Shown piece after piece: positions 6,751 to 62,507 of a DNA stretch of 64,000 nt. The notes beneath the pieces are model-generated. The model saw only the letters and a program-made list of their open reading frames with translations, ran no database searches and was not told the origin of the DNA. Source of the stretch: Candidatus Nealsonbacteria bacterium (lineage in GTDB: Bacteria > Patescibacteriota > Minisyncoccia > Minisyncoccales > RBG-13-42-11). How positions within the stretch are numbered: position 1 is the stretch's first letter; every line of letters begins with the position of its first letter. A program made the translations under genes and the position numbers. Where the stretch lies: the NCBI GenBank assembly GCA_026396115.1, contig JAPLXL010000004.1, forward strand, positions 19,805 through 83,804, written 5' to 3'.

Positions 6751-7411
6751 TTTTTGATTGAAAAGATTGTTTCGGAAAGTTCGTTAAAAATTGAATAATT
6801 AAAACCGTAGAAGTAGAAAATATATATACCCATATTTTGTGGTTATTAATTACTAGCTCAGTGCAAGCCGGATTAATTTTTGGCTTGACTGGGCAATCAA
6901 AAAATTTTACAGGCGGATGGTGGATGCCTTGGAAGATTGAGGCGATGAAGGACGTGGCGTGTCTGCGATAAGCCTCGGGGAGGTGGTTAGCAACCTTTGA
7001 TCCGGGGATTTCCGAATGGGGAAACCCAACGCGAATCAACAACGCGTTACCGCGCTGCGAAACAGCGTGGAGCAAACCTGGGGAAGTGAAACATCTCAGT
7101 ACCCAGAGGAAAAGAAAACGAAGTTTAATTCCCTTAGTAGCGGCGAGCGAAAAGGGAAGAGCCCAAACCTGCCAGTGCTTTGCACTCGTAGGGGTTGTAA
7201 GTTGGATATGTCCCAGAGCAATCTGGGCAGAGCTTTATAAAAATGTGATTTGGCTAGACGAAGGTTCCTGGAAAGGACAGCCAAAGAGAGTAATAGCCTC
7301 GTAGTCGAAAGTCATCACATGCTCTGAGTATCTATACTTGAGTATCCCGAGAAATGATAACCTTGGGAGAAACAAGCCGGACTAACCGGCTAAGGCTAAA
7401 TACTCAATCTT

Positions 7412-7452
<41 letters not shown>

Positions 7453-9576
7453 GGGAGGTGATCCCGGTGAAATAGAACCTGAAACCATCTCGCTTACAAA
7501 GAGTCAGAGCCGAGCACATAATTTATTATGTGCTTCGGTGATGGCGTGCTTTTTGTAGAACGAGCCAACGAGTCCTCGCTCTTTCTTTGTCTAAGCGGTT
7601 TTGCCGCGAAGGCAAAGGGAAACCAAGTCTTAATAGGGCGTCTCTCGGTTTTTCCGAGAAGAGAAAGAGCAAGGGACCCGAAGCCAAGCGAGCTTGCCAT
7701 GGCCAGGGTGAATTCCGCAGAAATGCGGGAGGAGGCCCGAACCCGTGAGCCGTTCAACACTCTGGGATGAGCTGTGGTAAGAAGTGAAAAGCTAATCGAG
7801 CTTGGTAATAGCTGGTTCTCCCCGAAATAGCTTTAGGGCTAGCCCGAGCAATTACCTACAGGGGTAGAGCACTGAATGGAATATCGTGGGTTTTACCTAG
7901 GTAATCCAATCAAACTCCGAATACTGTAGGTCAGAGCATATATTTTATGTGCTTTGATATATGCTCGGAGTTAGACTGTGGGGGCTAAGCTCCATGGTCA
8001 AAAGGGAAACAGCCCAGATCTTCATCTAAGGTCCCTAAACTAAGCTAAGTGTTTTGAAGGAAGTGAGACACCTGAGATAGTTAGGAGGTTAGCTTAGAAG
8101 CAGCTATCCTTTAAAAAGTGCGTAATAGCTTACTAACTAAGGAGTTTCGCGCCGAAGATTTATCGGGGCTAAGCTTAGTACCGAAGATAAGGGAACGTAC
8201 AATTTGCTTTGCAAATGTTACGTTCGGTAGGGGAGCGTTCTCTTCGCAGCGAAGTTAAACCGTGAGGTTTGATGGAGCGGAGAGAAGTGAGAATGTTGGC
8301 ATGAGTAACCGCAATGCCGCTGAGATAGCGGCACACCGAAAACCCAAGGTTTCCTTGGCAATGACAATCAGCCAAGGGTTAGGCGGTCCTTAGTCCAAAA
8401 CCGAAAGGTCAGGATGATGGACAGCCGGTTAATATTCCGGCCCCCGAGCACATAATCCAAAGAGGGGACGAAGTCTAGTAGTTTGGGCGAGTTATCGGAT
8501 TCTCGTTGTTAACCTAAGAATTTTCAAGGGTTAGCAAAATGCTTTGATTCTTCAAGGCAAATTCAAATAAGCAGGCTTCCCAGAAAAGCCTCAAAGGAAT
8601 TTAATTATGTGCTTGGTCCGTACCGCAAAACCGACACAGGTGGGTTGGTGTAAATGCACCAAGGTGAACGGGTGAAACCTCGTTAAGGAACTCGGCAAAA
8701 AAGTGGTCGTAAGTTCGCAATAAGACTTCTGAGCATATAAGTTTTATGTGCTCGGCGCAGCGAAAGTACCCCTGGCGACTGTTTACCAAAAACACAGGTC
8801 CCTGCTTAATTCGTAAGAAGATGTATAGGGGCTGAGGCCTGACCAGTGCTGGAACGTTAACGTCGCCGGTCTCATCGCAAGGTGAGGCTGAGTGACCGAA
8901 GCGCCAGTGAACGTCGGCGGTAACTATAACCGTCTTAAAGTACCGTAATCCCTTGCCAGGTAAGTTCTGGCCCGCAGGAAAGGTTTAACGACTGGGGGAC
9001 TGTCTCAACGAGGAGCCCGGTGAAAACGCAATACCGGTAAAGATGCCGGTTACCTACGGCTAGACGGAAAGACCCCGGGAGCTTTACTGTAGTTAAATAT
9101 TGAATTTTGGTTTTGAATGCGTAGCGTAGCGGGTAGGCTTTGAAGTGTCGTTTTCGGACGGCATGGAGCCGCCAATGAAACACCCGTCTTTTAAAATCTT
9201 TATTCTAACTCTGCTAAAAGCGGAAAACAGTGTTTAATGGGCAGTTTAAGTGGGGCGCTTGCCTCCTAAAAGGTAACGGAGGCGTTTATTAAGGTCGGCT
9301 AGGCACGGATGGAAATCGTGCTCGTCGTGTAAAGGCACAAGCCGGCTTGACTGCAAGAGGGATAACTCACGCAGGCACGAAAGTGGAACTTAGTGAACCG
9401 ACGGATTTTTGTAGAAAATCCGAAGATCATCAACTAAAAGCTACCCCGGGGATAACAGGCTAGTAGGGCCCGCGAGTTCATATCAACGGCCCTGTTCGGC
9501 ACCTTAACATATCGGGGTGCTATAGTAGTAATGCTATATCTCGCTTAAGGCGGGACGAAAAAACTGACTTATAACG

Positions 9577-9774
9577 GTGAAATCCATATGTTATAATATA
9601 TATATGGACAATACCGTGGGAAGTTTAACTCAATTTCAAAAATCGATAATCATAGGATCAATTTTAGGAGATGGGTATTTAAGAATTATTTCTGGCAGAA
9701 ATAATGCCTTTTTAGAAATAAATATTAATCCGGTGATTTTATCGATTTGGTTTATGGATGACGGAAGCAAATAA
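9577..9774 (+). pseudogene. Decayed LAGLIDADG homing endonuclease ORF inside intron 1
   Basis: 65-aa ORF keeps IIGSILGDGYL and WFMDDGSK motifs, but the sequence between them and the C-terminal half are missing. Confidence 0.7.
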
Positions 9775-9869
9775 TGAAATATAAATTGGGTTATAACCCC
9801 GTAGAGACTTGCTCAAAATGAGCAGATGAAAATAAAATTTTCATAATACGTCAGCCCCACCAAGGTTAG

Positions 9870-9924
9870 CTCGAAGAAGCTACGCTTCTTCTCGACCTTC
9901 GCTTTTGCTTCGCAAAAGCTCGGT
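9870..9924 (+). repeat. GCPE repeat, full form, inside intron 1 (P8-equivalent hairpin)
   Basis: CTCGAAGAAGCtacGCTTCTTCTCGACCTTC-GCTTTTGCttcGCAAAAGC-TCGGT between AATACGTC and GATATAGTCC; intron 2 has a plain hairpin here. Confidence 0.85.
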
Positions 9925-10068
9925 GGGTGAAGATATAGTCCGATCCTCCTTGTAAAAGGAGAAAAATACCGACAGCGATGTCGGCTCATCTCATCCTGGG
10001 GGTGAAGCAGCTCCCAAGGGTTTGGCTGTTCGCCAATTAAAGAGGTACGTGAGCTGGGTTCAAACCGT

Positions 10069-10388
10069 GGTTCCAATTTGGAACAGGCGGCCTCATTGGG
10101 CAATCAATGAGTGCAAAAACCCCGCACCAAAACTTTTAGTTTGATACGGGGTAAACCGACTAATATCGGTGAAGTCCATAGAAATTCTTTCAACCTGTAT
10201 TTCTATGGATAATACCGAGGCAAGTCCAATTTAAAAAGTTGGATGAGCCGTAGAGACTTTTCGCCGCAGAGGCGAAAGATGGAAGTTAACCTTCCATAAT
10301 ACGTCGGTCCCCTAAACCCGGTTGCTAAAAGCAACTTAGGGTCGGGTGGTGATATAGTCCATACATTTAGTAATAAGTGAAGTATATG
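10069..10388 (+). mobile_element. Group I intron 2 in 23S (approx. E. coli 2593, I-CreI-type site), ORF-less
   Basis: Splits GGGTTCAAACCGT|CGTAAGACAGGTTGG; 5' exon ends in T, insert ends in G; shares CCGTAGAGACTT..AATACGTC..GATATAGTCC core with intron 1. Confidence 0.85.
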
Positions 10389-10706
10389 CGTAAGACAGGT
10401 TGGTCCCTATCTACCGTAGGCGTTGAGTCTTGAGGGGGGTTCTCACTAGTACGAGAGGATCGTGAGGAACTGACCTCTGGTCTACCAGCTGTTCCACCAG
10501 GAGCATTGCTGGGTAGCTAAGTCGGGAACTGATAAGTGCTGAAAGCATCTAAGCGCGAAGCAGGCCCCAAGATTAGGACTCTTAGATTCCCCGCAGATTA
10601 CGGGGTTGATAGGCTGCAGGTGTAAGTGCAGTAATGCATTCAGCCGAGCAGTACTAATAAATCATTGATTTTTTGTTGCCCAATTAAACTGGGCTAGTAA
10701 TTAATG

Positions 10707-10762
10707 ACCGAGCCCCGCAATAGCGTGGCGAGGGGGAAGAAGAAAACTTTGTTTTCTTTGCC
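10707..10762 (-). repeat. GCPE repeat, variant full form, in 23S-5S spacer
   Basis: ACCGAG-CCCCGcaataCGTGG-CGAGGGGGAAGAAGAAAACtttGTTTTCTTTGCC. Confidence 0.7.
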
Positions 10763-10785
10763 CTTCACAAAAGCAAAAGGCGCTG

Positions 10786-38055: not shown

Positions 38056-38135
38056 GCTCAATGAATATAAAATTCATTTCGCCTTTGAGCTCAATGAATA
38101 TAAAATTCATTTCGCCTTCGATATTGATTCGGCTA
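38056..38135 (+). repeat. GCPE-architecture variant with TGAAT arms, SL1 unit duplicated in tandem
   Basis: GCTCAATGAATATAAAATTCATTTCGCCT occurs twice (38056-38084, 38088-38116), then TCGATATTGATTCGGCTA tail; overlaps the 3' end of gene 38107..38625. Confidence 0.65.
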
Positions 38136-38625
38136 TAGAAAGCCATTTTTGGCCCTGAATCTTCTTAATTTTGTATTTTTGCATTATTTTCTGTATTTCT
38201 ATTAATTGCAGAAAATCTTCTTTTTTCCATTCTTTAATTGCTTTTCCTTTGTTTTGAAAAAGGATTTCGATGGCTTTGCTCCACCATTCAGAATTCTGTT
38301 TTCTGTTTCCGGACAAGTCATATTCCTTGAAAAAGGGAATTACTTTATTGTAAAGATCGTCAATGCTTTGAACGGAATATCTGATTTTGTTTTCACCGAC
38401 AAAATGAAGCAGGCCGCAATTAAGAGAATTTTGGATTTTTCTTAATAAATCTTCATCTTTATATTTTCCCATAACCACAAACTGAGCTTTCCATCCATAA
38501 TAAACGGGACGATTGGTTCTTTTATATTTAACATCCCTTCTAAACTGCAAGTCAAAACAACCTTGACTATTTATAAAATCAATAATTTGTTTTTTTGATG
38601 ATATTTTTTCTTTTGCTTTGTTCAT
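38107..38625 (-). CDS. Free-standing LAGLIDADG-type endonuclease-like protein
   Basis: IIDFINSQGCF (compare GFxDxEGCF), later VIPFFKEYDLSGNRKQNSEWWSKAI (compare IPFFxKYxLxGxKxxDF); the acidic residue before G is Gln. Confidence 0.6.
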   Translation of the reverse strand: MNKAKEKISSKKQIIDFINSQGCFDLQFRRDVKYKRTNRPVYYGWKAQFVVMGKYKDEDLLRKIQNSLNCGLLHFVGENKIRYSVQSIDDLYNKVIPFFKEYDLSGNRKQNSEWWSKAIEILFQNKGKAIKEWKKEDFLQLIEIQKIMQKYKIKKIQGQKWLSIAESISKAK

Positions 38626-38633
38626 GTGATTGA

Positions 38634-39581
38634 TTATTCCTTTAGGCTGTGGAATTTTCGATGAATATCTCGAAGTTGTTTGCTGGTAACATGAGCATAA
38701 ATTTGAGTGGCAGCAATACTTTTGTGGCCTAGAAACTCTTGGATGGTTCTTAAATCTACTCCTTGGTTAAGTAAATCGGTAGCGAAACTATGCCTCATCA
38801 CATGGGGAGTGGTTGTCAGTGGTAATCCAGCTAAAATGGCGCATTTTTTAATTATTTTTTCAATTGAACGAGGAGTTAATCTCCGGGGAGCCCTAATTTT
38901 GGAGCGATAATTAATAAATAAAGCTTTCTCTTTATCTTTACGCGTTTCAAGATATTTTTTTAACCAAAATAAAGCTCTTTGAGAGAAATAAACCGTTCGA
39001 ATTCTCCCTCCTTTACCAACGATTGAGAGTTCCAATTCTTCCATTCCTAGCTTTATTTTAATTTGCTCCCGGTTTAATGCTGTAAGTTCGGCTATTCTCG
39101 TACCCGTTGAAAACAAGGTTTCTAAAATAGCGCGGTCCCTTAAACCTTGAATTTTAGAAACATCGGGAGTTAAAAATAGTTTTTCTAATTGTTCTAAATT
39201 TAAAAAACGAACTTGTCTTTCACCTTTATCTTTGGCTAATTTTATTTTTTCTGCTGGTAGAGAGAGAATGTCGCGGTCGGCAAAATAGTTTAGGAGGGAC
39301 CTGAGGGCTATTAAATAATAATTCTGAGTTGACTTTTTGAGGGGTTGCTTGGTTTTAGGGAGATATTGGCGAGAAAGGAAGAGGCGGTATTTCCAGATGT
39401 GTTCGGGAGTTAATTCGTGCGGCTTCAAATTTTCTAAGCTACTTATTTCTAGCCAATCAAAAAATCTTTTCAGAAATCTTGCATAATTTTCTTGAGATTT
39501 TGATGATAAACCTTTCTCAATCTCAAGCCAGTCCAGAAAATCTGATAGATGGTGGGGGATTGGTTTTGGGCTTTTCTCCAT
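38634..39581 (-). CDS. Tyrosine recombinase (XerC/XerD-like integrase)
   Basis: SAM-like N-domain; catalytic blocks GTRIAEL, HVMRHSFATDLL, LGHKSIAATQIYAHV. Confidence 0.87.
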   Translation of the reverse strand: MEKSPKPIPHHLSDFLDWLEIEKGLSSKSQENYARFLKRFFDWLEISSLENLKPHELTPEHIWKYRLFLSRQYLPKTKQPLKKSTQNYYLIALRSLLNYFADRDILSLPAEKIKLAKDKGERQVRFLNLEQLEKLFLTPDVSKIQGLRDRAILETLFSTGTRIAELTALNREQIKIKLGMEELELSIVGKGGRIRTVYFSQRALFWLKKYLETRKDKEKALFINYRSKIRAPRRLTPRSIEKIIKKCAILAGLPLTTTPHVMRHSFATDLLNQGVDLRTIQEFLGHKSIAATQIYAHVTSKQLRDIHRKFHSLKE

Positions 39582-41931: not shown

Positions 41932-42672
41932 TCATCTAGTTAAATATGCCACAAGATAATTGGCAATTATCCAGCCGGCTTCAGGCCTGGAAAATCCTTT
42001 TGCTTCTTCGGACATTTTTTTGAGTGCTTCAGGATCAGTAAAAAGAGATTTTAATTTTTCTAAGAAAAAATGAGAAGTAAAATTATTTTCTTCCATTACT
42101 AAACAAGCGCCGGACTCTTGGTAAGTATAAGCGTTTTTCACCTGATGGTTTTGAGCGGATTCTGATAAAGGAATTAAAACAGAAGGTTTGCCGGCGGCCG
42201 CAATTTCAAAAATACTTCCAGATCCTGCCCGGCTGACAATTAAGTCAGCAGCTGCATAAGCTTGGCGAAGTTCTGGCTCTTTCAAAAAAGGATAAAGATG
42301 ATAAAAGGGTTCCAAATCTTTATTTATTATTAGTTTTAATTCTGCTTTTATTGTTGCATAGTTATTTTTTCCGCATTGATGGATTACTTCAAAGTTTTCC
42401 AAAAGTCGCGGCAGGATTTCTAAAATTTCGTCATTAATTCTCTGGGCTCCTTGCGATCCACCCAGAATTAAAATAACGGGTTTGACTAAGGGCGAAGAAG
42501 ATTTATCTTCTTCTTTACCCTTCGCTGCGGCTCGGGTGGGCGAGGAAATTAAATATTTCACATTGGAAGGGTTTGATGGGGTAAAACCGCTTTTAACCGA
42601 GAGCGAAGAAGATAAATCTTCTTCTTCCCCCTTCGCTACCGCTCGGGAGGGCGAATCTCCTTCTCCGCCCAT
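41932..42672 (-). CDS. murG: MurG C-terminal (UDP-GlcNAc-binding) domain only, fused to about 60 repeat-derived residues; truncated or split gene
   Basis: ILGGSQGAQ..., SRAGSGSIFEIAAAGKPSVLIP, NHQVKNA blocks match the MurG C-domain; no N-domain ORF upstream on this strand. Confidence 0.6.
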   Translation of the reverse strand: MGGEGDSPSRAVAKGEEEDLSSSLSVKSGFTPSNPSNVKYLISSPTRAAAKGKEEDKSSSPLVKPVILILGGSQGAQRINDEILEILPRLLENFEVIHQCGKNNYATIKAELKLIINKDLEPFYHLYPFLKEPELRQAYAAADLIVSRAGSGSIFEIAAAGKPSVLIPLSESAQNHQVKNAYTYQESGACLVMEENNFTSHFFLEKLKSLFTDPEALKKMSEEAKGFSRPEAGWIIANYLVAYLTR

Positions 42673-43279
42673 TGAAAATATTGTTATTTATCAACAAATT
42701 GATAATGATATCTATTATTTAGATAATTTTGGTCATCTTTTTAAAAACGGGGCAAGAATTACCGCCATGCCCTTCCCAATAAAACAAGAAACTGGATATG
42801 TTTTAGAAATTTTTCAAGGTTTTATCTTTTTACGAGAATTAAATGGTGACTTGTATAAATTTAATCCCGATCTAAAAGTTTTTGAGAATTTTTTTGAAAG
42901 AATCAATTCTTTGAAAATTTCTCCGGATAATAAAAAACTGGCGTATTTCTCAAATCATGAAATCTGGATTCTTTTTTTAAGCGATAAAAACGATCCGCCG
43001 CAAAAAAAAACAGGAGAAAAACTTTTTTTAATTCGTTTATCAGAAGCAATAACCGATGTTTTTTGGATAAACTCTGACTATTTAATCTTTATTGCCGGAG
43101 ACAAGATTAAAATTAGCGAAATAGACGACAGAGACAAACTAAATATTATAGATATTTTTGAAACAAAAAAACTTCCGCAAAACGGAAGCTCCTTGGAAAT
43201 GTTTTGGAATCAATTTGATAAAAAGTTATATCTCTTGAGCGGAAACAATTTATACGGTTCTGGCGCTCTTCTCCCTTAA
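42482..43279 (+). CDS. Hypothetical protein (possible C-terminal beta-propeller-like fragment); N-terminus read from repeats
   Basis: ISPDNKKLAYFSNHEIWIL and DVFWINSDYLIFIAGDKI resemble TolB/PD40-type blade repeats; TTG start; first about 60 aa are GCPE-encoded. Confidence 0.4.
   Translation: MTKGEEDLSSSLPFAAARVGEEIKYFTLEGFDGVKPLLTESEEDKSSSSPFATAREGESPSPPIENIVIYQQIDNDIYYLDNFGHLFKNGARITAMPFPIKQETGYVLEIFQGFIFLRELNGDLYKFNPDLKVFENFFERINSLKISPDNKKLAYFSNHEIWILFLSDKNDPPQKKTGEKLFLIRLSEAITDVFWINSDYLIFIAGDKIKISEIDDRDKLNIIDIFETKKLPQNGSSLEMFWNQFDKKLYLLSGNNLYGSGALLP
42490..42537 (+). repeat. GCPE repeat, short form
   Basis: GGGCGAAGAAGAtttaTCTTCTTCTTTACCCTTCGCTGCGGCTCGGGT. Confidence 0.88.
42601..42648 (+). 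repeat. GCPE repeat, short form
   Basis: GAGCGAAGAAGAtaaaTCTTCTTCTTCCCCCTTCGCTACCGCTCGGGA. Confidence 0.88.
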
Positions 43280-43284
43280 TTCAA

Positions 43285-44055
43285 CTACCAAGCTTCCGAA
43301 GGAAGCGAAGTAGAAGAAGATTTCTTCTTCTCCACCTCAGCTGAAGCTTCGGTAGTTGAAGAAGAGGATTTATCCTCTTCGACTTTCTTTTTAAAATCAT
43401 TCCAATTAATCTCTCCGGCATTAGCTATAGGGCAAACTTCTTTAAATTGGCAATATCTACATTGCCAGTTTTTAGGGTAATCTGGCAATCTATCGGGAAT
43501 AATGTTTTTATCAATCTTTTTTTTAACATCATTTAAGGCGTCCAAGAGAGAAAGGACGCGTTTTTTATCATAATTTACTATAAAATCCTTTAATTGCTGG
43601 TTGTCTTTATTAACGTAAAGCAGTATTCCTCTGGGAATTTTAAAATAATGCAAATAAAGCTGGATTTGATCAATGTTTTCTTCTTTTGGTTCAATCAAGT
43701 TTTTAAAAATCATGCTGTTCATACTCTTGATATCTAAGACATATAAATTCTTTCCGTTACTGATTATGGCATCGGCCCTGCCCGAAATCAATTCCTGAGG
43801 AGGAATGTTTACTTCGGCAGCAACCACATGGATTTCTCTAATGCTTAAAAGAGGTTTCATAATAAGCTGATGAATGTGGTCGCCGTGATCGAATAATCTT
43901 AAAATATTTGCTTCCATTTCTTTCCGGGGCACATTTTTGAATTTAAAAAATATTGCCCTGGCGCATTTGCCGGCATCGGTAATGTAAAAGTGATGCTGTT
44001 CTTTGTCCTTTTGCCTATCCAAATAAAATTTATCAATGAGTTCTCTAAGAAACAT
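43285..44055 (-). CDS. PD-(D/E)XK nuclease, Cas4/RecB-like with Cys cluster; repeat-derived C-terminal tail
   Basis: GRADAI, VLDIKS (D-x-K), QIQLYLHY; one N-terminal Cys (GKCARA) plus CRYCQFKEVC; last about 35 aa encoded by repeat 43287-43383. Confidence 0.62.
   Translation of the reverse strand: MFLRELIDKFYLDRQKDKEQHHFYITDAGKCARAIFFKFKNVPRKEMEANILRLFDHGDHIHQLIMKPLLSIREIHVVAAEVNIPPQELISGRADAIISNGKNLYVLDIKSMNSMIFKNLIEPKEENIDQIQLYLHYFKIPRGILLYVNKDNQQLKDFIVNYDKKRVLSLLDALNDVKKKIDKNIIPDRLPDYPKNWQCRYCQFKEVCPIANAGEINWNDFKKKVEEDKSSSSTTEASAEVEKKKSSSTSLPSEAW
43287..43383 (-). repeat. GCPE triple composite unit
   Basis: ACCAAGCTTCCgaaGGAAGCGAAGTAGAAGAAGAtttCTTCTTC-TCCACCTCAGCTGAAGCTTCGGTAG-TTGAAGAAGAGGAtttaTCCTCTTCGAC. 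Confidence 0.88.
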
Positions 44056-44062
44056 AAATTTT

Positions 44063-44118
44063 TATCTCTTCGACCGCCGAACCGCAGTGAGGCTGAAGAA
44101 GAGATTTATCTCTTCGAC
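44063..44118 (-). repeat. GCPE repeat, variant
   Basis: TATCTCTTCGACCGCCGAACCGCAGTGAGGCTGAAGAAGAGATttATCTCTTCGAC; its SL1 arm supplies the rpsI ..SKR-stop codons. Confidence 0.7.
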
Positions 44119-44636
44119 CACTGAGGGGCTCTTCTGGCTCTTTTTAAGCCGAATTTCTTTCTTTCCCGCATTCTCGGATCTCTTTTTAAATAACCTGCCT
44201 TTTTTAGTTTTTTTCTAAAGTCGGGGTTAAACAAAACCAAAGCTCTGGCCACTCCGTGCCTAACAGCTTCAGCTTGTGAAACCGTCCCCCCTCCCTTTAC
44301 TTTTACTGAAACTTTAAATTGTTCCAGGCAATCCATTAAATTTAAGGGAGCATAAACTGCTTGCTGAAGTTCTATCGTTGGAAAATATTCTTCTAAAGGT
44401 TTTTCGTTAACCACCGAGCTTTCGCGAAGCGAAAGCGAAGGTAAAGAAGAGGACGAAGTCCTCTTCGACGAACCCCCTTCTTTCCGGGAAAAAAGGCGAA
44501 CCCTGGCAACGGCTGTTTTTCTTCTTCCCACGCCTTCAAAATATTTTTCTTTTTTTGTCTTCAAGGGCTCTTTGGTTTTTTTAGCGATAACGGTTTTTTT
44601 CGTTTTTTTTGTCATTGTTTTTTTCATAAATCGCAT
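44106..44636 (-). CDS. rpsI: 30S ribosomal protein S9 with in-frame repeat insertion
   Basis: GRRKTAVARVRL, VKGGGTVSQAEAVRHG, C-terminal RRAPQWSKR; Lys-rich N-terminal extension; 19-codon insert. Confidence 0.93.
   Translation of the reverse strand: MRFMKKTMTKKTKKTVIAKKTKEPLKTKKEKYFEGVGRRKTAVARVRLFSRKEGGSSKRTSSSSLPSLSLRESSVVNEKPLEEYFPTIELQQAVYAPLNLMDCLEQFKVSVKVKGGGTVSQAEAVRHGVARALVLFNPDFRKKLKKAGYLKRDPRMRERKKFGLKRARRAPQWSKR
44413..44469 (-). repeat. GCPE repeat, full form, in frame in rpsI (57 bp)
   Basis: ACCGAGCTTTCGCgaaGCGAAAGCGAAGGTAAAGAAGAGGAcgaagTCCTCTTCGAC, read as [19 protein letters not shown]. Confidence 0.92.
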
Positions 44637-44983: not shown

Positions 44984-45083
44984 ACCAAGCCCCGCGCAGC
45001 GGGGCGAATTCGAAGAAGATTCCTTCTTCTCCACCTCAGTTGAAGCTTCGGTAGGTGAAGATGAGAACGAATTTCTCATCGCC
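44984..45083 (-). repeat. GCPE triple composite unit
   Basis: ACCAAGCCCCGCgcaGCGGGGCGAATTCGAAGAAGAttcCTTCTTC-TCCACCTCAGTTGAAGCTTCGGTAG-GTGAAGATGAGAACgaattTCTCATCGCC; abuts rplM ATG. Confidence 0.88.
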
Positions 45084-45086
45084 TTG

Positions 45087-46830: not shown

Positions 46831-46832
46831 AT

Positions 46833-46888
46833 ACCGAGCTTCCATTTATGGAAGCGAAGGTGAAGAAGAGGACGAAGTCCTCTTCGCC
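46833..46888 (-). repeat. GCPE repeat, full form (rpsK-rpsD spacer)
   Basis: ACCGAGCTTCCatttatGGAAGCGAAGGTGAAGAAGAGGAcgaagTCCTCTTCGCC; CTCGGTATATG junction with rpsD. Confidence 0.93.
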
Positions 46889-46891
46889 AAT

Positions 46892-49879: not shown

Positions 49880-51628
49880 TTATTCTAAAATAGCCTGAAT
49901 TCTTCGCACTCCGGCACCAGAACTTTCTTCTTTTATAATTTTAAATAAGCCCAATTCTGAAGTTCTTTTAATGTGGGGACCGGCACAAATTTCTTTCGAG
50001 AAGTCTTCGATTAAAAAAACTGTTACGATTTCGGGATATTTTTCTTTAAAAACCGAGTTTCCGCGAAAAGGAAACGAAGGTGAAAAAGAGGATTTATCCT
50101 CTTTGCCCAAAGCTAAAGCCCCGCTTTTTATTGCAGCCTTATAATTCATCTCTTCTTTTTTTACCTCCAAATCTTCTTTGATTTTCTGATTAACAAGACT
50201 TTGAACTTTTTTAATTTCATTTTCTGTCATCTTTTGATGATGAGAAAAATCAAATCTTAATCTTTGAGAAGTAATATCTGAACCCATTTGTTTAACATGC
50301 TCCCCTAAGATTTTTCTTAAGGCAGCCTGAAGCAAATGAGTGGCGGTATGAAGTTTTGTTGTCTCATAAGTCACTTCCTTTCCTACTCCGCCAAATTTAC
50401 TTTCTACCCCGGCTCTGGAAATCTCTTGATGTTTTTTAAAAGCCTCTTCAAATCCTTTTTGATCAATATTTAAATTTCTTTCTTTAGCAAGTTCAATTGT
50501 TAGTTCTAAAGGGAAACCATAGGTATCATACAGATGAAAAGCATCAACCCCAGAAATATTCCCTTTTTTGGAAATGTTCTCAAACTGCTTTAATCCTTCA
50601 TGGAGAGTTCTTTCAAATTTTTCTTCCTCTTGTTGAATTACGGTTAGAATCTCTTCTTCTTTTGATTTAATTTCCGGATAAACATTTTTGTAGATTTCAA
50701 TTACTTTTTGAGCCAGAAGAATTAAGAAATTAGCAGGTAAATTAAGCAATTTGCCGTATCTGATTGCTCTCCTTAGAATTCTTCTCAGAACGTATCCCTT
50801 CTCAACATTGGAAGGCAAAATCCCATCCGAAATCAAAAAAACTGCACTCTTCACATGATCAGCAATAATCCTTCCCCCTTTTAAATTTGCAGGGGTCCGA
50901 CCCGTGTATTTTTGAAGCTCGCCGATAATTGACTCGAATAAATCGGTCTCAAAGACGCTGGATTTATTTTGAACAATCATTGCTAATCTCTCTAATCCCA
51001 TGCCAGTGTCAACGCCCTTTTGTACCAATGGAGTAAGTTGCTTATTTTTATCTTGATAATATTCATTAAAAACCAGATTCCAAACTTCGATGCCCTTAAT
51101 ATGAATTTCGGTTGTTGGGCCGCAGGGGCCTTCTTGACCGGTCGGACCCCAAAAATTATCTGCTCTTCCGCATTTTTTTATTTTATTTTTATGAACTCCT
51201 AATTCTTTCCAAATTTCAACCGATTCTTCGTCTTCCGGCACATCTTTATCACCCTCAAAAACTGTAAAAATTGTTTCCTTCAGGGGCAATTTTAATTCTT
51301 TAAAAATAAACTCGTAAGCCCAACTTATCGCTTCCTTTTTGAAATATCCCCCAAAAGAAAAATTACCCAACATTTCAAGAAAAGTTAAATGGCTTTCATC
51401 TCCCACTTCTTCAATATCAGAAGTTCTAAAACATTTCTGGCAAGAACAGACATTCTGACCATAAGGGGATTTTTCTACCAGATAATAAGGCTTAAATTGC
51501 TGCATTCCGGCCGTGGTAAAAAGAACCGAGGGGTCGGTCGGAATAAGCGAGATGGGGGGCACTATTTTATGCCTCTTTTTTTCAAAGAATTTCAAAAATT
51601 GTTCTCTTAATTTTCTCGAGGTCATCAA
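49880..51628 (-). CDS. alaS: Alanine--tRNA ligase, compact form (no C-Ala domain) with repeat insert
   Basis: FTTAGMQQFKP catalytic block, editing-domain HTATHLL and CAGPHI motifs; 582 aa versus about 870 in model bacteria. Confidence 0.9.
   Translation of the reverse strand: MMTSRKLREQFLKFFEKKRHKIVPPISLIPTDPSVLFTTAGMQQFKPYYLVEKSPYGQNVCSCQKCFRTSDIEEVGDESHLTFLEMLGNFSFGGYFKKEAISWAYEFIFKELKLPLKETIFTVFEGDKDVPEDEESVEIWKELGVHKNKIKKCGRADNFWGPTGQEGPCGPTTEIHIKGIEVWNLVFNEYYQDKNKQLTPLVQKGVDTGMGLERLAMIVQNKSSVFETDLFESIIGELQKYTGRTPANLKGGRIIADHVKSAVFLISDGILPSNVEKGYVLRRILRRAIRYGKLLNLPANFLILLAQKVIEIYKNVYPEIKSKEEEILTVIQQEEEKFERTLHEGLKQFENISKKGNISGVDAFHLYDTYGFPLELTIELAKERNLNIDQKGFEEAFKKHQEISRAGVESKFGGVGKEVTYETTKLHTATHLLQAALRKILGEHVKQMGSDITSQRLRFDFSHHQKMTENEIKKVQSLVNQKIKEDLEVKKEEMNYKAAIKSGALALGKEDKSSFSPSFPFRGNSVFKEKYPEIVTVFLIEDFSKEICAGPHIKRTSELGLFKIIKEESSGAGVRRIQAILE
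50052..50106 (-). repeat. GCPE repeat, full form, in frame in the alaS editing domain
   Basis: ACCGAGTTTCCgcgaaaaGGAAACGAAGGTGAAAAAGAGGAtttaTCCTCTTTGCC, read as GKEDKSSFSPSFPFRGNSV. Confidence 0.88.
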
Positions 51629-52181: not shown

Positions 52182-52934
52182 TCAGTTTAAATCAATATCT
52201 TTTACTATTTTAATAAACTCCTTCGCGTTTAAAGATATACCACCGATTAAAAGTCCTTGGAAACCCCCTTTTTTGATGTAATCTCCGGCATTTTGAAAAT
52301 TAACGCTGCCTCCATAAAGGATGGGAATTTTTTTATTTAATACTTCCTTTTTAATTAATATTCTCATTTTATTGGCTTTTTCGACACTACAAGGTTTACC
52401 CGTGCCAACAGCAAAAATGGGCTCATAGGCGATTATCAAATTCGATAATTCTTTTTTGACAAGACCGCTTAAATCTTTTTTAAGGCGAAGAGGGCTTCGG
52501 CCTCTTCTTCCACCTCGTTTCCTTAAGAAGCTCGGTATTTGAGAAATATTATCAATACATAAAATTACTTTTAACCCCGTCTTCAAAGCGGCTTTTAATT
52601 TTTTGTTTATCATTTCATCGGTCTCTTTCTGATATTTTCTTCTTTCGGAATGGCCGATAATTACATATTTTATGCCCGTATTTTTTAACATTAAAGGTGA
52701 AATCTCGCCGGTAAAAGCGCCCTTTTCTTCCCAAAAACAACTTTGCCCTCCAAAGCTTACAACGGAAGATGGCTCCTGACTGACAAGCAAAGAAAGATAA
52801 ACAAATGGCGGACAAATTACCACCTCTGAATTTTTTACATTTTTTATCCCTTTTCTTATTGAATCAAAAAGCTTCTCAGCTTCCCGTAAAGTTATTGGAT
52901 TACATTTCCAATTAGCGACAATTAATAGTTTCAT
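52182..52934 (-). CDS. tpiA: Triosephosphate isomerase with in-frame repeat insertion
   Basis: ANWKCN, IIGHSERR, AYEPIFAVGTG, YGGSV motifs. Confidence 0.93.
   Translation of the reverse strand: MKLLIVANWKCNPITLREAEKLFDSIRKGIKNVKNSEVVICPPFVYLSLLVSQEPSSVVSFGGQSCFWEEKGAFTGEISPLMLKNTGIKYVIIGHSERRKYQKETDEMINKKLKAALKTGLKVILCIDNISQIPSFLRKRGGRRGRSPLRLKKDLSGLVKKELSNLIIAYEPIFAVGTGKPCSVEKANKMRILIKKEVLNKKIPILYGGSVNFQNAGDYIKKGGFQGLLIGGISLNAKEFIKIVKDIDLN
52484..52537 (+). repeat. GCPE repeat, full form, in frame (antisense reading) in tpiA (54 bp)
   Basis: GGCGAAGAGGGCttcGGCCTCTTCTTCCACCTC-GTTTCCTTaaGAAGC-TCGGTA, read on the gene strand as PSFLRKRGGRRGRSPLRL. Confidence 0.9.
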
Positions 52935-62270: not shown

Positions 62271-62507
62271 TTATCCTTGAGGCGAAGAGGACTTCGTCCT
62301 CTTCTTCACCTTCGCTCCGCTGCCGTGGAGCTCGGTTAATAAAGTTAATATTTGGGCGATTTCTTTTTTAACCTTGCGGATTTCTCTGACATTTTTTACT
62401 TTTCCTGTTATCAAATCAAATCTAAGCTGTCTTAATTTTTCTCGATCATCTCTTAAGATCTTTTGAATTTCTTCTTTAGATTTTCTGCGCAATTCGTCAA
62501 TTTTCAT
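62271..62507 (-). CDS. rpmC: 50S ribosomal protein L29 with repeat-derived C-terminal extension
   Basis: L29 helical hairpin (ELRRKSKEEI..LRQLRFDL..); last about 19 aa (LHGSGAKVKKRTKSSSPQG) encoded by repeat 62281-62336. Confidence 0.9.
   Translation of the reverse strand: MKIDELRRKSKEEIQKILRDDREKLRQLRFDLITGKVKNVREIRKVKKEIAQILTLLTELHGSGAKVKKRTKSSSPQG
62281..62336 (+). repeat. GCPE repeat, full form, forming the rpmC 3' end
   Basis: GGCGAAGAGGActtcgTCCTCTTCTTCACCTTC-GCTCCgctgccgtGGAGC-TCGGT. Confidence 0.9.

What the first reader, a model, noticed from the sequence alone, without database searches (positions are those of the whole stretch)
44413..44469. Ribosomal protein uS9 carries a 19-codon GCPE insert in its N-terminal beta-turn
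The uS9 sequence reads ..GRRKTAVARVRLFSRKEGG[[19 protein letters not shown]]VVNEKPLEEYFP... In E. coli, from memory, the equivalent stretch is [23 protein letters not shown]. The 57-bp full element therefore replaces or splits the tight PG-G-K-I turn. An insertion of selfish-looking DNA into a universally conserved small-subunit protein is unusual. It would add a Ser-rich loop to the ribosome surface.
Basis: partly seen in the sequence, partly recalled or inferred. Interest (0 to 1): 0.7.

Follow-up and report, generated by a model that had tools for sequence, protein, structure and literature searches.

The report
Mobile hairpin repeat inside uS9 gene
A 57-base, hairpin-forming selfish repeat that litters this Nealsonbacteria (CPR) genome sits in frame inside the gene for ribosomal protein uS9, lengthening one loop by about 18 amino acids. 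Near-identical strains carry no insert, or different inserts, at the same spot.

Summary
Window 44106-44636 (-) is an intact uS9 gene, and 44413-44469 is a full copy of a dispersed double-hairpin repeat (profile E=5e-18). The family forms 47 islands, 4.5% of the window. The copy lies in the tight turn between two N-terminal beta-strands. It supplies 19 Ser-rich codons (S56-S74), a net gain of 18 codons over the closest empty allele. AlphaFold2 models the uS9 core confidently and the insert as a disordered loop.

uS9 genes at least 95% identical in DNA carry five different states of this loop: empty, this insert, a nested two-element insert, its deletion derivative, and an unrelated hairpin. 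A more distant lineage has a clean 57-nt insertion 6 nt away.

The case is not unique. All ten polymorphic in-gene insertions seen in about 20 kb of syntenic DNA are multiples of 3 nt, including sites in uL18, rpoA, AlaRS and TIM. uL29 has an element-derived tail.

Both hairpins are kept by compensatory changes. I found no terminal inverted repeats, no target duplication and no Rfam match. The closest analogue is the Rickettsia palindromic element, but this family is shorter, two-hairpin, used in several frames and both orientations, and in Patescibacteria. I found no published description. Translation of the insert and the mobilising enzyme are inferred, not shown.

The parts
44106..44636 (-). 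uS9 (rpsI) gene, 176 codons from the first ATG. The NCBI protein P0001 starts at M8.
   Evidence: Pfam PF00380 E=7.9e-41 covering profile positions 1-121. PDB uS9 hits down to 8e-31. P0001 is 100% identical and named 30S ribosomal protein S9 of Candidatus Nealsonbacteria. Syntenic rplM-rpsI position in all relatives.
44413..44469 (-). The 57-nt double-hairpin repeat copy. On the coding (-) strand it reads hairpin A, then spacer, then hairpin B, then TCGGT. It is translated in frame as S56-S74 (codons at 44415-44471).
   Evidence: nhmmer hit 44413-44470, E=5.3e-18. Absent from L001 and L007/L066 at the same site. AF2 pLDDT below 50 for residues 54-70, between strands E42-50 and E74-76.
44446..44466 (.). 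Hairpin A: GAAGAGGAC-GAA-GTCCTCTTC, a 9-bp stem with a 3-nt loop.
   Evidence: Hairpin scan. RNA and DNA folds. Six of 9 pairs show compensatory changes among 26 copies.
44418..44436 (.). Hairpin B: GCTTTCGC-GAA-GCGAAAGC, an 8-bp stem with a 3-nt loop.
   Evidence: Five of 8 pairs show compensatory changes and 96% of cells are paired.
46832..46889 (-). Family copy that exactly fills the rpsK-rpsD intergenic spacer.
   Evidence: E=3.2e-16. Present in the window, L001 and L003; absent in L007 and L002 as a clean 56-57-nt gap.
44995..45084 (-). Family copy upstream of rplM, with a 45-nt family member nested in its spacer (TTCACC|TTC).
   Evidence: L001 and L003 have the host element without the 45-mer.
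43286..43384 (-). Element copies, one nested, that form the C-terminal tail of the PD-(D/E)XK/Cas4-like protein next to rpsI.
62279..62336 (+). Family copy that forms the last 21 codons of uL29 (rpmC, 62271-62507 on the - strand). It is in the opposite orientation relative to the mRNA.
   Evidence: E=2.6e-11. ORF and sequence.
50052..50108 (-). In-frame 57-nt copy inside alanyl-tRNA synthetase.
   Evidence: Present in the window and L067, absent in L065 and L066.
52482..52537 (+). In-frame 54-nt copy inside triosephosphate isomerase.
   Evidence: Clean 54-nt gap in L065.
9871..9933 (+). Family copy inside the 23S rRNA gene, in a stretch that does not align to the LSU model.

Best explanation
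The segment is a copy of a small, non-coding, highly abundant and currently turning-over dispersed repeat, 45-58 nt long. Its architecture is G(G/T)C, then hairpin A (GAAGAR...YTCTTC), then the spacer TTCACCTTC, then a variable hairpin B, then TCGGTA. The copy became inserted into the DNA that encodes the tip of an N-terminal beta-hairpin of uS9.

The element has few stop codons, and only variants that kept the frame survive. The gene therefore stays open and is most probably translated straight through, giving uS9 an extra 18-19-residue Ser-rich flexible loop on the outside of the 30S head. The insert itself is best seen as a tolerated passenger of selfish DNA, not an adaptation. The same permissive loop has been hit or remodelled several times in closely related strains.

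Shown: family membership, insertion polymorphism, intact frame, hairpin covariation, and the absence of terminal inverted repeats and target duplications.

Inferred: translation of the insert, its solvent exposure, and the mode of spread. My best guess for the spread is mobilisation in trans as a hairpin-structured single strand by an enzyme encoded elsewhere (of the REP/RAYT or IS200/IS605 type), or a copy-choice process.
For: Family and abundance:
- The profile gives 38 non-overlapping hits in 64 kb.
- With the subfamilies included there are 47 islands covering 2,851 nt, which is 4.5% of the window.
- The core motif occurs 32 times against 0.12 expected.
- The same pattern occurs in low-GC contigs labelled Nealsonbacteria, Parcubacteria or Minisyncoccales, or (in TPA assemblies) Saccharibacteria, including ten stretches of a complete 640-kb Nealsonbacteria chromosome.

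Insertion, not ancestry:
- The empty allele reads GAA AAG AGT|TTT TTA ATT AAC in L001 (uS9 core 94-95% identical) and similarly in L007.
- L004 has a clean 57-nt insert between AGC and TTTTTG.

Hot spot: five loop alleles occur among uS9 genes at least 95% identical. These are the window, L001, L003/L064, L061 and L062.

Translation:
- The uS9 ORF is intact in the window and in the independent assembly L002.
- Between these two insert-bearing genes, 43 of 60 core differences are at third codon positions, as expected under purifying selection.
- All 10 polymorphic in-gene insertions in about 20 kb of four syntenic genomes have lengths that are multiples of 3: 45, 45, 48, 48, 48, 54, 54, 54, 57 and 93 nt.
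- Elements have on average 4.1 open frames out of 6, against 2.4 for shuffled elements and 2.5 for random 57-mers. The uS9 copy has 5 of 6.

Structure: the AF2 core is confident and superposes on bacterial uS9 at 1.5 A, while residues 54-70 have pLDDT below 50 between two strands. More distant CPR uS9 proteins carry unrelated 8-17-residue expansions at the same loop.

Hairpins: 90% of cells are paired against 40-55% in slid controls, 12 of 20 pairs show compensatory changes, and 0 of 500 shuffles reach the observed values. The RNA fold is -31.3 kcal/mol, z=-3.4.

Orientation: 29 of 38 copies are co-oriented with the local gene and GC-skew direction.
Against: - No protein or RNA data show that the insert is translated.
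- No transposase-like gene was seen among the 15 window ORFs scanned with Pfam, and the other ORF translations read like housekeeping proteins. The rest of the genome could not be searched.
- Junctions show no consistent target sequence.
- The same insert is 58/60 identical in the window and L002, whose uS9 genes are only 83% identical and 63% identical at third positions. Nearer relatives lack it. A neutral passenger inherited vertically would not look like this. It needs constraint on the element, conversion from other copies, recurrent insertion, or allele exchange.
- The upstream junction in the window carries a cluster of substitutions (PQKEKS to SRKEGG) that I cannot explain.
Confidence: 0.8

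Rival explanations
1. The repeats are functional structured modules rather than pure parasites. They could be mRNA processing, stability or pausing signals, or DNA-level signals. On this view the uS9 copy is retained because its hairpins do something in the rplM-rpsI transcript or during its translation. This is not exclusive of a mobile origin.
For: - Both stems are maintained by compensatory change.
- The uS9 copy is 58/60 identical between lineages whose uS9 third codon positions are only 63% identical, and both differences are synonymous.
- The orthologous TIM copies in the window and L066 differ by a paired change within hairpin A.
- 29 of 38 copies share the orientation of transcription.
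- Many copies exactly fill the stop-to-start spacers of operons.
Against: - Presence or absence differs at about 16 sites in 19 kb between genomes that are 95% identical, and near-identical strains manage with an empty uS9 site.
- Both orientations and several reading frames occur inside genes.
- No Rfam family matches.
- Covariation among copies is also expected if only hairpin-competent masters can spread.
Confidence: 0.15
2. The insert is not part of the mature protein. It would be removed from the mRNA, or skipped by the ribosome as in the translational bypass of phage T4 gene 60 or the mitochondrial 'byp' elements of Magnusiomyces. It could also be excised from the protein.
For: A very stable double hairpin (-31 kcal/mol) lies inside a coding region. 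The byp elements are likewise small GC-rich mobile inserts in genes of an AT-rich genome (from my own knowledge).
Against: - The insert is stop-free and in frame, and all ten polymorphic in-gene insertions are multiples of 3 nt. Neither would be required if the insert were skipped.
- There are no matching take-off and landing codons and no stop after a take-off codon. The upstream codon is GGT in the window and AGT in L002, and landing on either downstream GGT runs into TAA (read from the sequence).
- No intron family matches in Rfam.
- 19 residues is far too short for an intein.
Confidence: 0.03
3. The stretch is a lineage-specific loop expansion of uS9 that only resembles the repeat by composition. 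Alternatively the gene is a pseudogene, or the insert is an assembly artefact created at a repeat.
For: More distant CPR uS9 proteins do have unrelated expansions of this loop. Elsewhere in the window, a gene is truncated exactly at an element copy near 42,490, which could reflect rearrangement or misassembly.
Against: - The profile E-value is 5e-18, with both hairpins and all conserved motifs present.
- Empty sites exist in close relatives.
- The same insert occurs in an independent ENA assembly with an intact ORF.
- All 45 residues invariant across the 40-sequence uS9 alignment are by definition present in the window protein.
- The gene sits in its normal operon position.
Confidence: 0.02

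Closest known systems
Rickettsia palindromic elements (RPEs; Ogata et al. 2000, as summarised in PMC10969869)
   Same: Both are dispersed palindromic repeats with no coding capacity of their own. Both are found many times in frame inside unrelated conserved protein genes, and also outside them, in a small AT-rich genome. Both are thought to be tolerated because they fall in permissive parts of the protein.
   Different: - RPEs are about 100-150 bp; this family is 45-58 nt.
- RPEs are described as encoding a conserved peptide. This family has two short independent hairpins with variable stems and is read in several frames and both orientations, so there is no single conserved peptide.
- The host is Patescibacteria, not Rickettsia.
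- Sequence relatedness to RPEs was not tested.
REP/BIME and REPIN elements mobilised by RAYT, and hairpin-ended IS200/IS605 derivatives
   Same: Short GC-rich hairpins at very high copy number. Stems kept by compensatory change. No terminal inverted repeats and no target-site duplication. Tandem and nested arrangements. A strand or orientation bias.
   Different: - REPs are extragenic by definition.
- The conserved GTAG/CGTC tag (PMC3733652) is present next to only 3-5 of 26 copies.
- No constant target tetranucleotide was seen at the junctions.
- No RAYT or TnpA gene was seen in the part of the window that was scanned.
Mitochondrial double-hairpin elements, GC clusters and repetitive hairpin elements of fungi and sponges (for example PMC2800124; Allomyces DHEs from my own knowledge)
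   Same: Two adjacent short hairpins, tens of nucleotides long. GC-rich islands in an AT-rich compact genome. Found in intergenic spacers, in variable parts of rRNA genes and occasionally in coding regions. The mobilising enzyme is unknown.
   Different: Those are organellar and not bacterial. Homology is neither known nor tested. Some related mitochondrial inserts are bypassed during translation, and nothing here suggests that.
Classical bacterial MITEs (Correia/NEMIS, ERIC, RUP, BOX)
   Same: Small non-autonomous repeats, sometimes intragenic and sometimes creating in-frame fusions (PMC10969869).
   Different: MITEs have terminal inverted repeats and target-site duplications inherited from a parent IS. 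Neither is present here.

Membership tests
   nhmmer E=5.3e-18 over model positions 3-60. The copy aligns without gaps to 25 other copies.
   9-bp and 8-bp perfect stems in the uS9 copy. 12 of 20 pairs vary on both sides across copies, and 0 of 500 shuffles reach the observed values.
Rickettsia palindromic elements | Dispersed palindromic repeat inserted in frame in conserved protein-coding genes | tested here: met
   In-frame copies in uS9, PBP2, a Mur ligase, a DegT aminotransferase, FtsQ, GrpE, AlaRS and TIM. Ten of 10 polymorphic in-gene inserts are multiples of 3 nt.
Rickettsia palindromic elements | Element of about 100-150 bp that encodes one conserved peptide (PMC10969869) | tested here: not met
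   Lengths are 45-58 nt. The peptides differ with frame and orientation, for example [43 protein letters not shown] and IPSFLRKRGGRRGRSPLR.
Rickettsia palindromic elements | Sequence homology to RPE-1 to RPE-10 | not tested
MITE | Terminal inverted repeats | tested here: not met
   The two ends (GKCGAAG... and ...GCTCGGTA) are not complementary. The only inverted repeats are the two internal hairpins.
MITE | Target-site duplication | tested here: not met
   Filled and empty pairs at rpsK/rpsD, uS9 (L004), TIM, rpoA and the nested 45-mers show no consistent duplication. A TA next to some junctions is not reproduced at others.
REP/REPIN with RAYT | Conserved GTAG or CGTC tag at the foot of the palindrome (PMC3733652) | tested here: not met
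   (G/A)TAG precedes hairpin A in only 3-5 of 26 aligned copies, and some of those belong to an upstream tandem copy or a stop codon.
REP/REPIN with RAYT | A RAYT (Y1 HUH transposase) gene in the genome | not testable with these tools
   Only 64 kb of the genome is held. No such domain appeared in the 15 ORFs scanned.
IS200/IS605-type hairpin elements | Hairpin ends, no TIR or TSD, strand bias | tested here: met
IS200/IS605-type hairpin elements | Insertion 3' of a fixed 4-5-nt target | tested here: inconclusive
   About nine junctions were examined. The flanks are A/T-rich, but no shared tetranucleotide is present.
Translational bypass elements (T4 gene 60, mitochondrial byps) | Matching take-off and landing codons, a stop codon in the gap, no frame requirement | tested here: not met
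   No stop in frame and no matching codon pair. All in-gene inserts keep the frame.
Group I/II intron, other known RNA family | Match to a curated covariance model | tested here: not met
   Nothing reaches the gathering score over the element. The best match in the permissive E-value search scores 17 bits against a gathering score of 40.

The most novel reading that the evidence does not exclude
The family is a previously undescribed kind of bacterial mobile element that is adapted to living inside coding sequences. It has no terminal repeats, no target duplication and no recognisable transposase signature. Its canonical lengths are mostly multiples of three, it is depleted in stop codons, and its hairpins are kept by compensatory change even after insertion. 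On this reading the uS9 beta-hairpin tip is a recurrent landing or retention site. Co-occurring Nealsonbacteria strains would then build ribosomes with different surface loops on uS9, uL18 and uL29, a protein counterpart of rRNA expansion segments. That could matter for ribosome-ribosome contacts, since uS9 forms a disome head interface in E. coli (PMC10897467).
Probability: 0.25. Interest if true: 0.8.

Novelty: new variant of a known kind. Interest (0 to 1): 0.62.

Why it matters
CPR/Patescibacteria have tiny genomes thought to be under strong streamlining. Even so, 4.5% of this window is a fast-turning-over repeat that colonises essential genes, including those for ribosomal proteins, RNA polymerase alpha and an aminoacyl-tRNA synthetase.

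If the inserts are translated, they are a ready source of new surface loops and of strain-level heterogeneity in the translation machinery. They also provide a second, independent natural experiment, after Rickettsia, on how proteins tolerate palindromic DNA.

There are practical consequences too. Such inserts split domain hits and change marker-protein lengths (AlaRS homologues range from about 523 to 613 residues in this clade). They coincide with at least one gene truncation or rearrangement breakpoint, which matters for MAG quality control and for phylogenomics based on ribosomal proteins.

The dense presence/absence polymorphism makes the mobility mechanism directly testable in metagenomic time series.

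Tried and rejected
- TA target-site duplication of the IS630/mariner type. Three intergenic junctions are compatible with it (upstream of rpsH, rpsE and rplX in relatives). The rpsK/rpsD, TIM and nested 45-mer junctions are not. Rejected as a rule.
- GTAG REP tag. It is seen in only a minority of copies.
- A recombination tract explaining the shared window/L002 insert. The flanks on both sides differ at the usual rate and only the element is conserved, so a simple tract that includes the flanks is not supported.
- Element replacing native sequence in TIM. I suggested this from a PDB alignment. It is wrong: L065 shows a clean 54-nt empty site.
- Replication-strand versus transcription-strand bias. 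The two cannot be separated, because gene direction and GC skew switch together near 38-40 kb and the counter-oriented block at 23.4-27.1 kb holds no copies.
- Metagenome scan with a uS9-flank pattern to survey alleles. It returned only two contigs, one of them already held.
- Four high-GC genome hits of the pattern scan (labelled Thermoanaerobaculia, Dehalococcoidales, Dehalococcoidaceae and Pseudomonadales) are chance matches with no profile hit.
- Literature searches for a prior description in CPR/Patescibacteria found nothing.
- The strict multiple-of-three idea for all copies holds for only 16 of 26 by common boundaries. It is strict only inside genes.

Full report
**1. What is at the coordinates**

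The minus-strand ORF 44106-44636 is a complete uS9 gene. It matches Pfam Ribosomal_S9 over the whole profile (E=7.9e-41) and all bacterial uS9 chains in the PDB. It is identical to an NCBI protein named 30S ribosomal protein S9 of a Candidatus Nealsonbacteria MAG (P0001). It lies in the usual rplM-rpsI position.

The protein reads ...[43 protein letters not shown]. The 57 nt at 44413-44469 are two perfect hairpins, GCTTTCGC-GAA-GCGAAAGC and GAAGAGGAC-GAA-GTCCTCTTC, joined by GAAGGTAAA.

**2. It is a member of a repeat family, far beyond chance**

- Repeat finding shows dozens of related copies on both strands.
- A profile built from eleven copies, the uS9 copy among them, gives 38 non-overlapping hits at E<=1e-3. 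The uS9 copy scores E=5.3e-18.
- With three related subfamilies added there are 47 islands covering 2,851 nt, or 4.5% of the window.
- The 17-nt core occurs 32 times with up to 3 mismatches, against 0.12 expected.

The common architecture, read 5' to 3' in the orientation found on the uS9 coding strand, is:

- G(G/T)C
- hairpin A (GAAGAR..YTCTTC, 18-21 nt)
- spacer TTCACCTTC
- hairpin B (15-19 nt, variable stem)
- TCGGTA

Among 26 copies, 90% of cells pair, against 40-55% when partners are slid. Twelve of 20 pairs show changes on both sides, and no shuffle reaches these values. The uS9 copy folds at -31.3 kcal/mol as RNA (z=-3.4) and forms the same two hairpins as DNA. No Rfam family matches.

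**3. It is an insertion, and the site is hypervariable**

An alignment of 40 uS9 proteins shows that the closest relatives differ exactly here. I fetched the DNA. The alleles are:

| Locus | State of the loop |
|---|---|
| L001, L007/L066 | Empty: GAA AAG AGT\|TTT TTA ATT AAC |
| Window | This insert. Net +54 nt, with five target bases missing |
| L002 | The same insert, 58/60 identical |
| L006 | Same junctions and hairpin B, but a different hairpin A |
| L004 | A clean 57-nt family member between AGC and TTTTTG |
| L061 | A family member inserted after TTTTTG, carrying a second, inverted element nested in the loop of its hairpin B |
| L003, L064 | Deletion derivatives of the L061 allele |
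| L062 | An unrelated 27-nt-longer hairpin |

These states are read. The uS9 cores of the window, L001, L003, L061 and L062 are 95-98% identical to one another. So five different loop states exist among near-identical genes.

Conversely, the window and L002 share the insert although their cores are only 83% identical, and 63% identical at third positions. The flanks next to the insert differ at the ordinary rate. The shared insert therefore needs one of three explanations: constraint or conversion acting on the element, repeated insertion of one master copy, or allele exchange limited to the element. I cannot decide among these.

**4. Where it sits in the protein**

AlphaFold2, given the 40-sequence alignment, models the core with pLDDT above 90. 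It places residues 54-70 (pLDDT below 50) between strands E42-50 and E74-76. The model superposes on bacterial uS9 at 1.5 A over about 123 columns.

Without the insert the spacing equals that of ordinary uS9. The insert therefore splits the tight turn that is PGNGK in E. coli (E. coli sequence from memory, and the mycobacterial alignment). More distant CPR uS9 proteins have unrelated 8-17-residue expansions at the same place, so the turn is permissive.

The globular domain of uS9 lies on the outside of the 30S head, where it makes ribosome-ribosome contacts in disomes and some 100S particles (PMC10897467, PMC6177447). Whether this particular loop points to solvent could not be computed here.

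**5. The uS9 case is one of many**

In the window, in-frame internal copies interrupt these genes:

- PBP2
- a Mur ligase
- a DegT aminotransferase, at two places
- FtsQ, at two places
- GrpE
- an FAD oxidoreductase
- AlaRS
- TIM

Copies also form the C-terminal tails of uL29 and of the PD-(D/E)XK protein.

I aligned about 20 kb of the window with three syntenic contigs that are 85-95% identical. This gave about 24 polymorphic element sites. The window and L065, 94.8% identical, differ at about 16 of them.

All ten polymorphic insertions that lie inside genes are multiples of 3 nt. They fall in uL18 (two sites), TIM (two), an RNaseH-like gene, AlaRS (two), rpoA, uS9 and the PD-(D/E)XK tail. 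Their lengths are 45, 45, 48, 48, 48, 54, 54, 54, 57 and 93 nt. Intergenic insertion lengths are mixed. Under a one-in-three chance, ten of ten has a probability of about 2e-5.

Elements keep 4.1 of 6 frames open on average, against 2.4 for shuffled elements and 2.5 for random 57-mers. The uS9 copy keeps 5 of 6. Together with the intact ORFs, this argues that the inserts are translated, not skipped.

**6. How it probably works**

Shown:

- The element has no terminal inverted repeats and no consistent target duplication or target motif.
- Its flanks are A/T-rich.
- Copies nest into one another at a fixed point of the spacer (GCGAA^GGTGAAG), and tandem copies occur.
- 29 of 38 copies share the direction of local genes and GC skew.

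Inferred: these traits, plus recognition of structure rather than sequence in the inner stems, are those of elements moved as single-stranded hairpins by HUH enzymes (REP/RAYT, IS200/IS605). However, the GTAG tag and a fixed target are missing, and no enzyme gene was seen among the 15 window ORFs scanned with Pfam, nor suggested by the other ORF translations. A copy-choice mechanism using the purine-rich microhomology seen at several targets (GAAAAGAG in uS9, for example) is an alternative that I could not test.

For uS9 itself, the most likely consequence is simply a longer flexible loop. The recurrence at this loop is most economically explained by selection: few places in a 130-residue ribosomal protein tolerate insertions. 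A target preference for the T-run remains possible.

**7. Comparison with what is known**

The closest analogue in behaviour is the Rickettsia palindromic element (PMC10969869). The present family differs in size, architecture, frame usage and host, and its homology to RPEs is untested.

It resembles REP/REPIN and IS200/IS605-derived elements in structure but fails their tag and target criteria. It resembles mitochondrial double-hairpin elements in form. It is not a MITE in the strict sense.

The pattern is found in low-GC contigs labelled Nealsonbacteria, Parcubacteria or Minisyncoccales. It also appears in TPA MAGs labelled Saccharibacteria, and I would not trust those labels. Full-text searches found no description of such elements in CPR bacteria. 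That is absence from the held library, not proof of novelty.

**8. Verdict**

The finding is a real, in-frame, polymorphic insertion of a mobile double-hairpin repeat into a universal ribosomal protein. It is part of a genome-wide phenomenon in this lineage.

I rate it a new variant of a known kind, namely palindromic repeats that live inside genes. Interest is moderate to high, mainly because of three things: the extreme turnover, the repeated use of the same uS9 loop, and the unexplained conservation of the insert between distant lineages.

Noticed in passing
window 6898-10677 (23S rRNA gene), especially 9650-9975: The 23S gene spans 3,780 nt for a 2,925-nt model. A stretch just 5' of model position 2527 does not align to the LSU model and contains a full copy of the repeat (9871-9933). 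Another copy lies between the 23S and 5S genes (about 10722-10769).
   Followed up: partly
window 62271-62507 (-), element at 62279-62336: uL29 ends in a 21-residue tail (TELHGSGAKVKKRTKSSSPQG) encoded by a repeat copy in the opposite orientation. The stop codon lies just beyond the element.
   Followed up: partly
window 41932-43279: A gene that is 445 aa in relatives is represented only by residues 214-445, with a 16-residue in-frame element inside. Homology ends exactly at an element copy (42490-42546). The divergent neighbour is a MurG-like ORF with only the C-terminal domain. Synteny with L065/L066 (MreB next) is lost here. This is either an element-associated rearrangement or a misassembly.
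   Followed up: partly
L065 about 2300-2350, L066 about 2700-2800 and L067 about 2050-2100 (uL18); L003 about 2150 / L065 about 16300 (rpoA): Relatives carry 48-nt in-frame element insertions at two different sites of uL18 and a 45-nt one in rpoA. All are absent from the window.
   Followed up: partly
window 38107-39581: A free-standing LAGLIDADG endonuclease ORF (38107-38625) lies next to a XerC/D-like tyrosine recombinase (38634-39581). They sit at the point where gene direction and cumulative GC skew switch (about 38-40 kb).
   Followed up: no
L066 about 320-450 (between rplN and rplX): An element plus 8 nt of flank is tandemly duplicated. This site is empty in the window.
   Followed up: no
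window 44472-44489: Just upstream of the uS9 insert, the window has a cluster of substitutions (PQKEKS to SRKEGG, mostly A-to-G). These extend predicted pairing with the element's spacer in the RNA fold. No relative shares them.
   Followed up: no
AlaRS homologues: AlaRS lengths in this clade range from about 523 to 613 residues. The window and L067 alleles are lengthened by 48- and 57-nt element insertions, which suggests repeated element insertions across many lineages.
   Followed up: no
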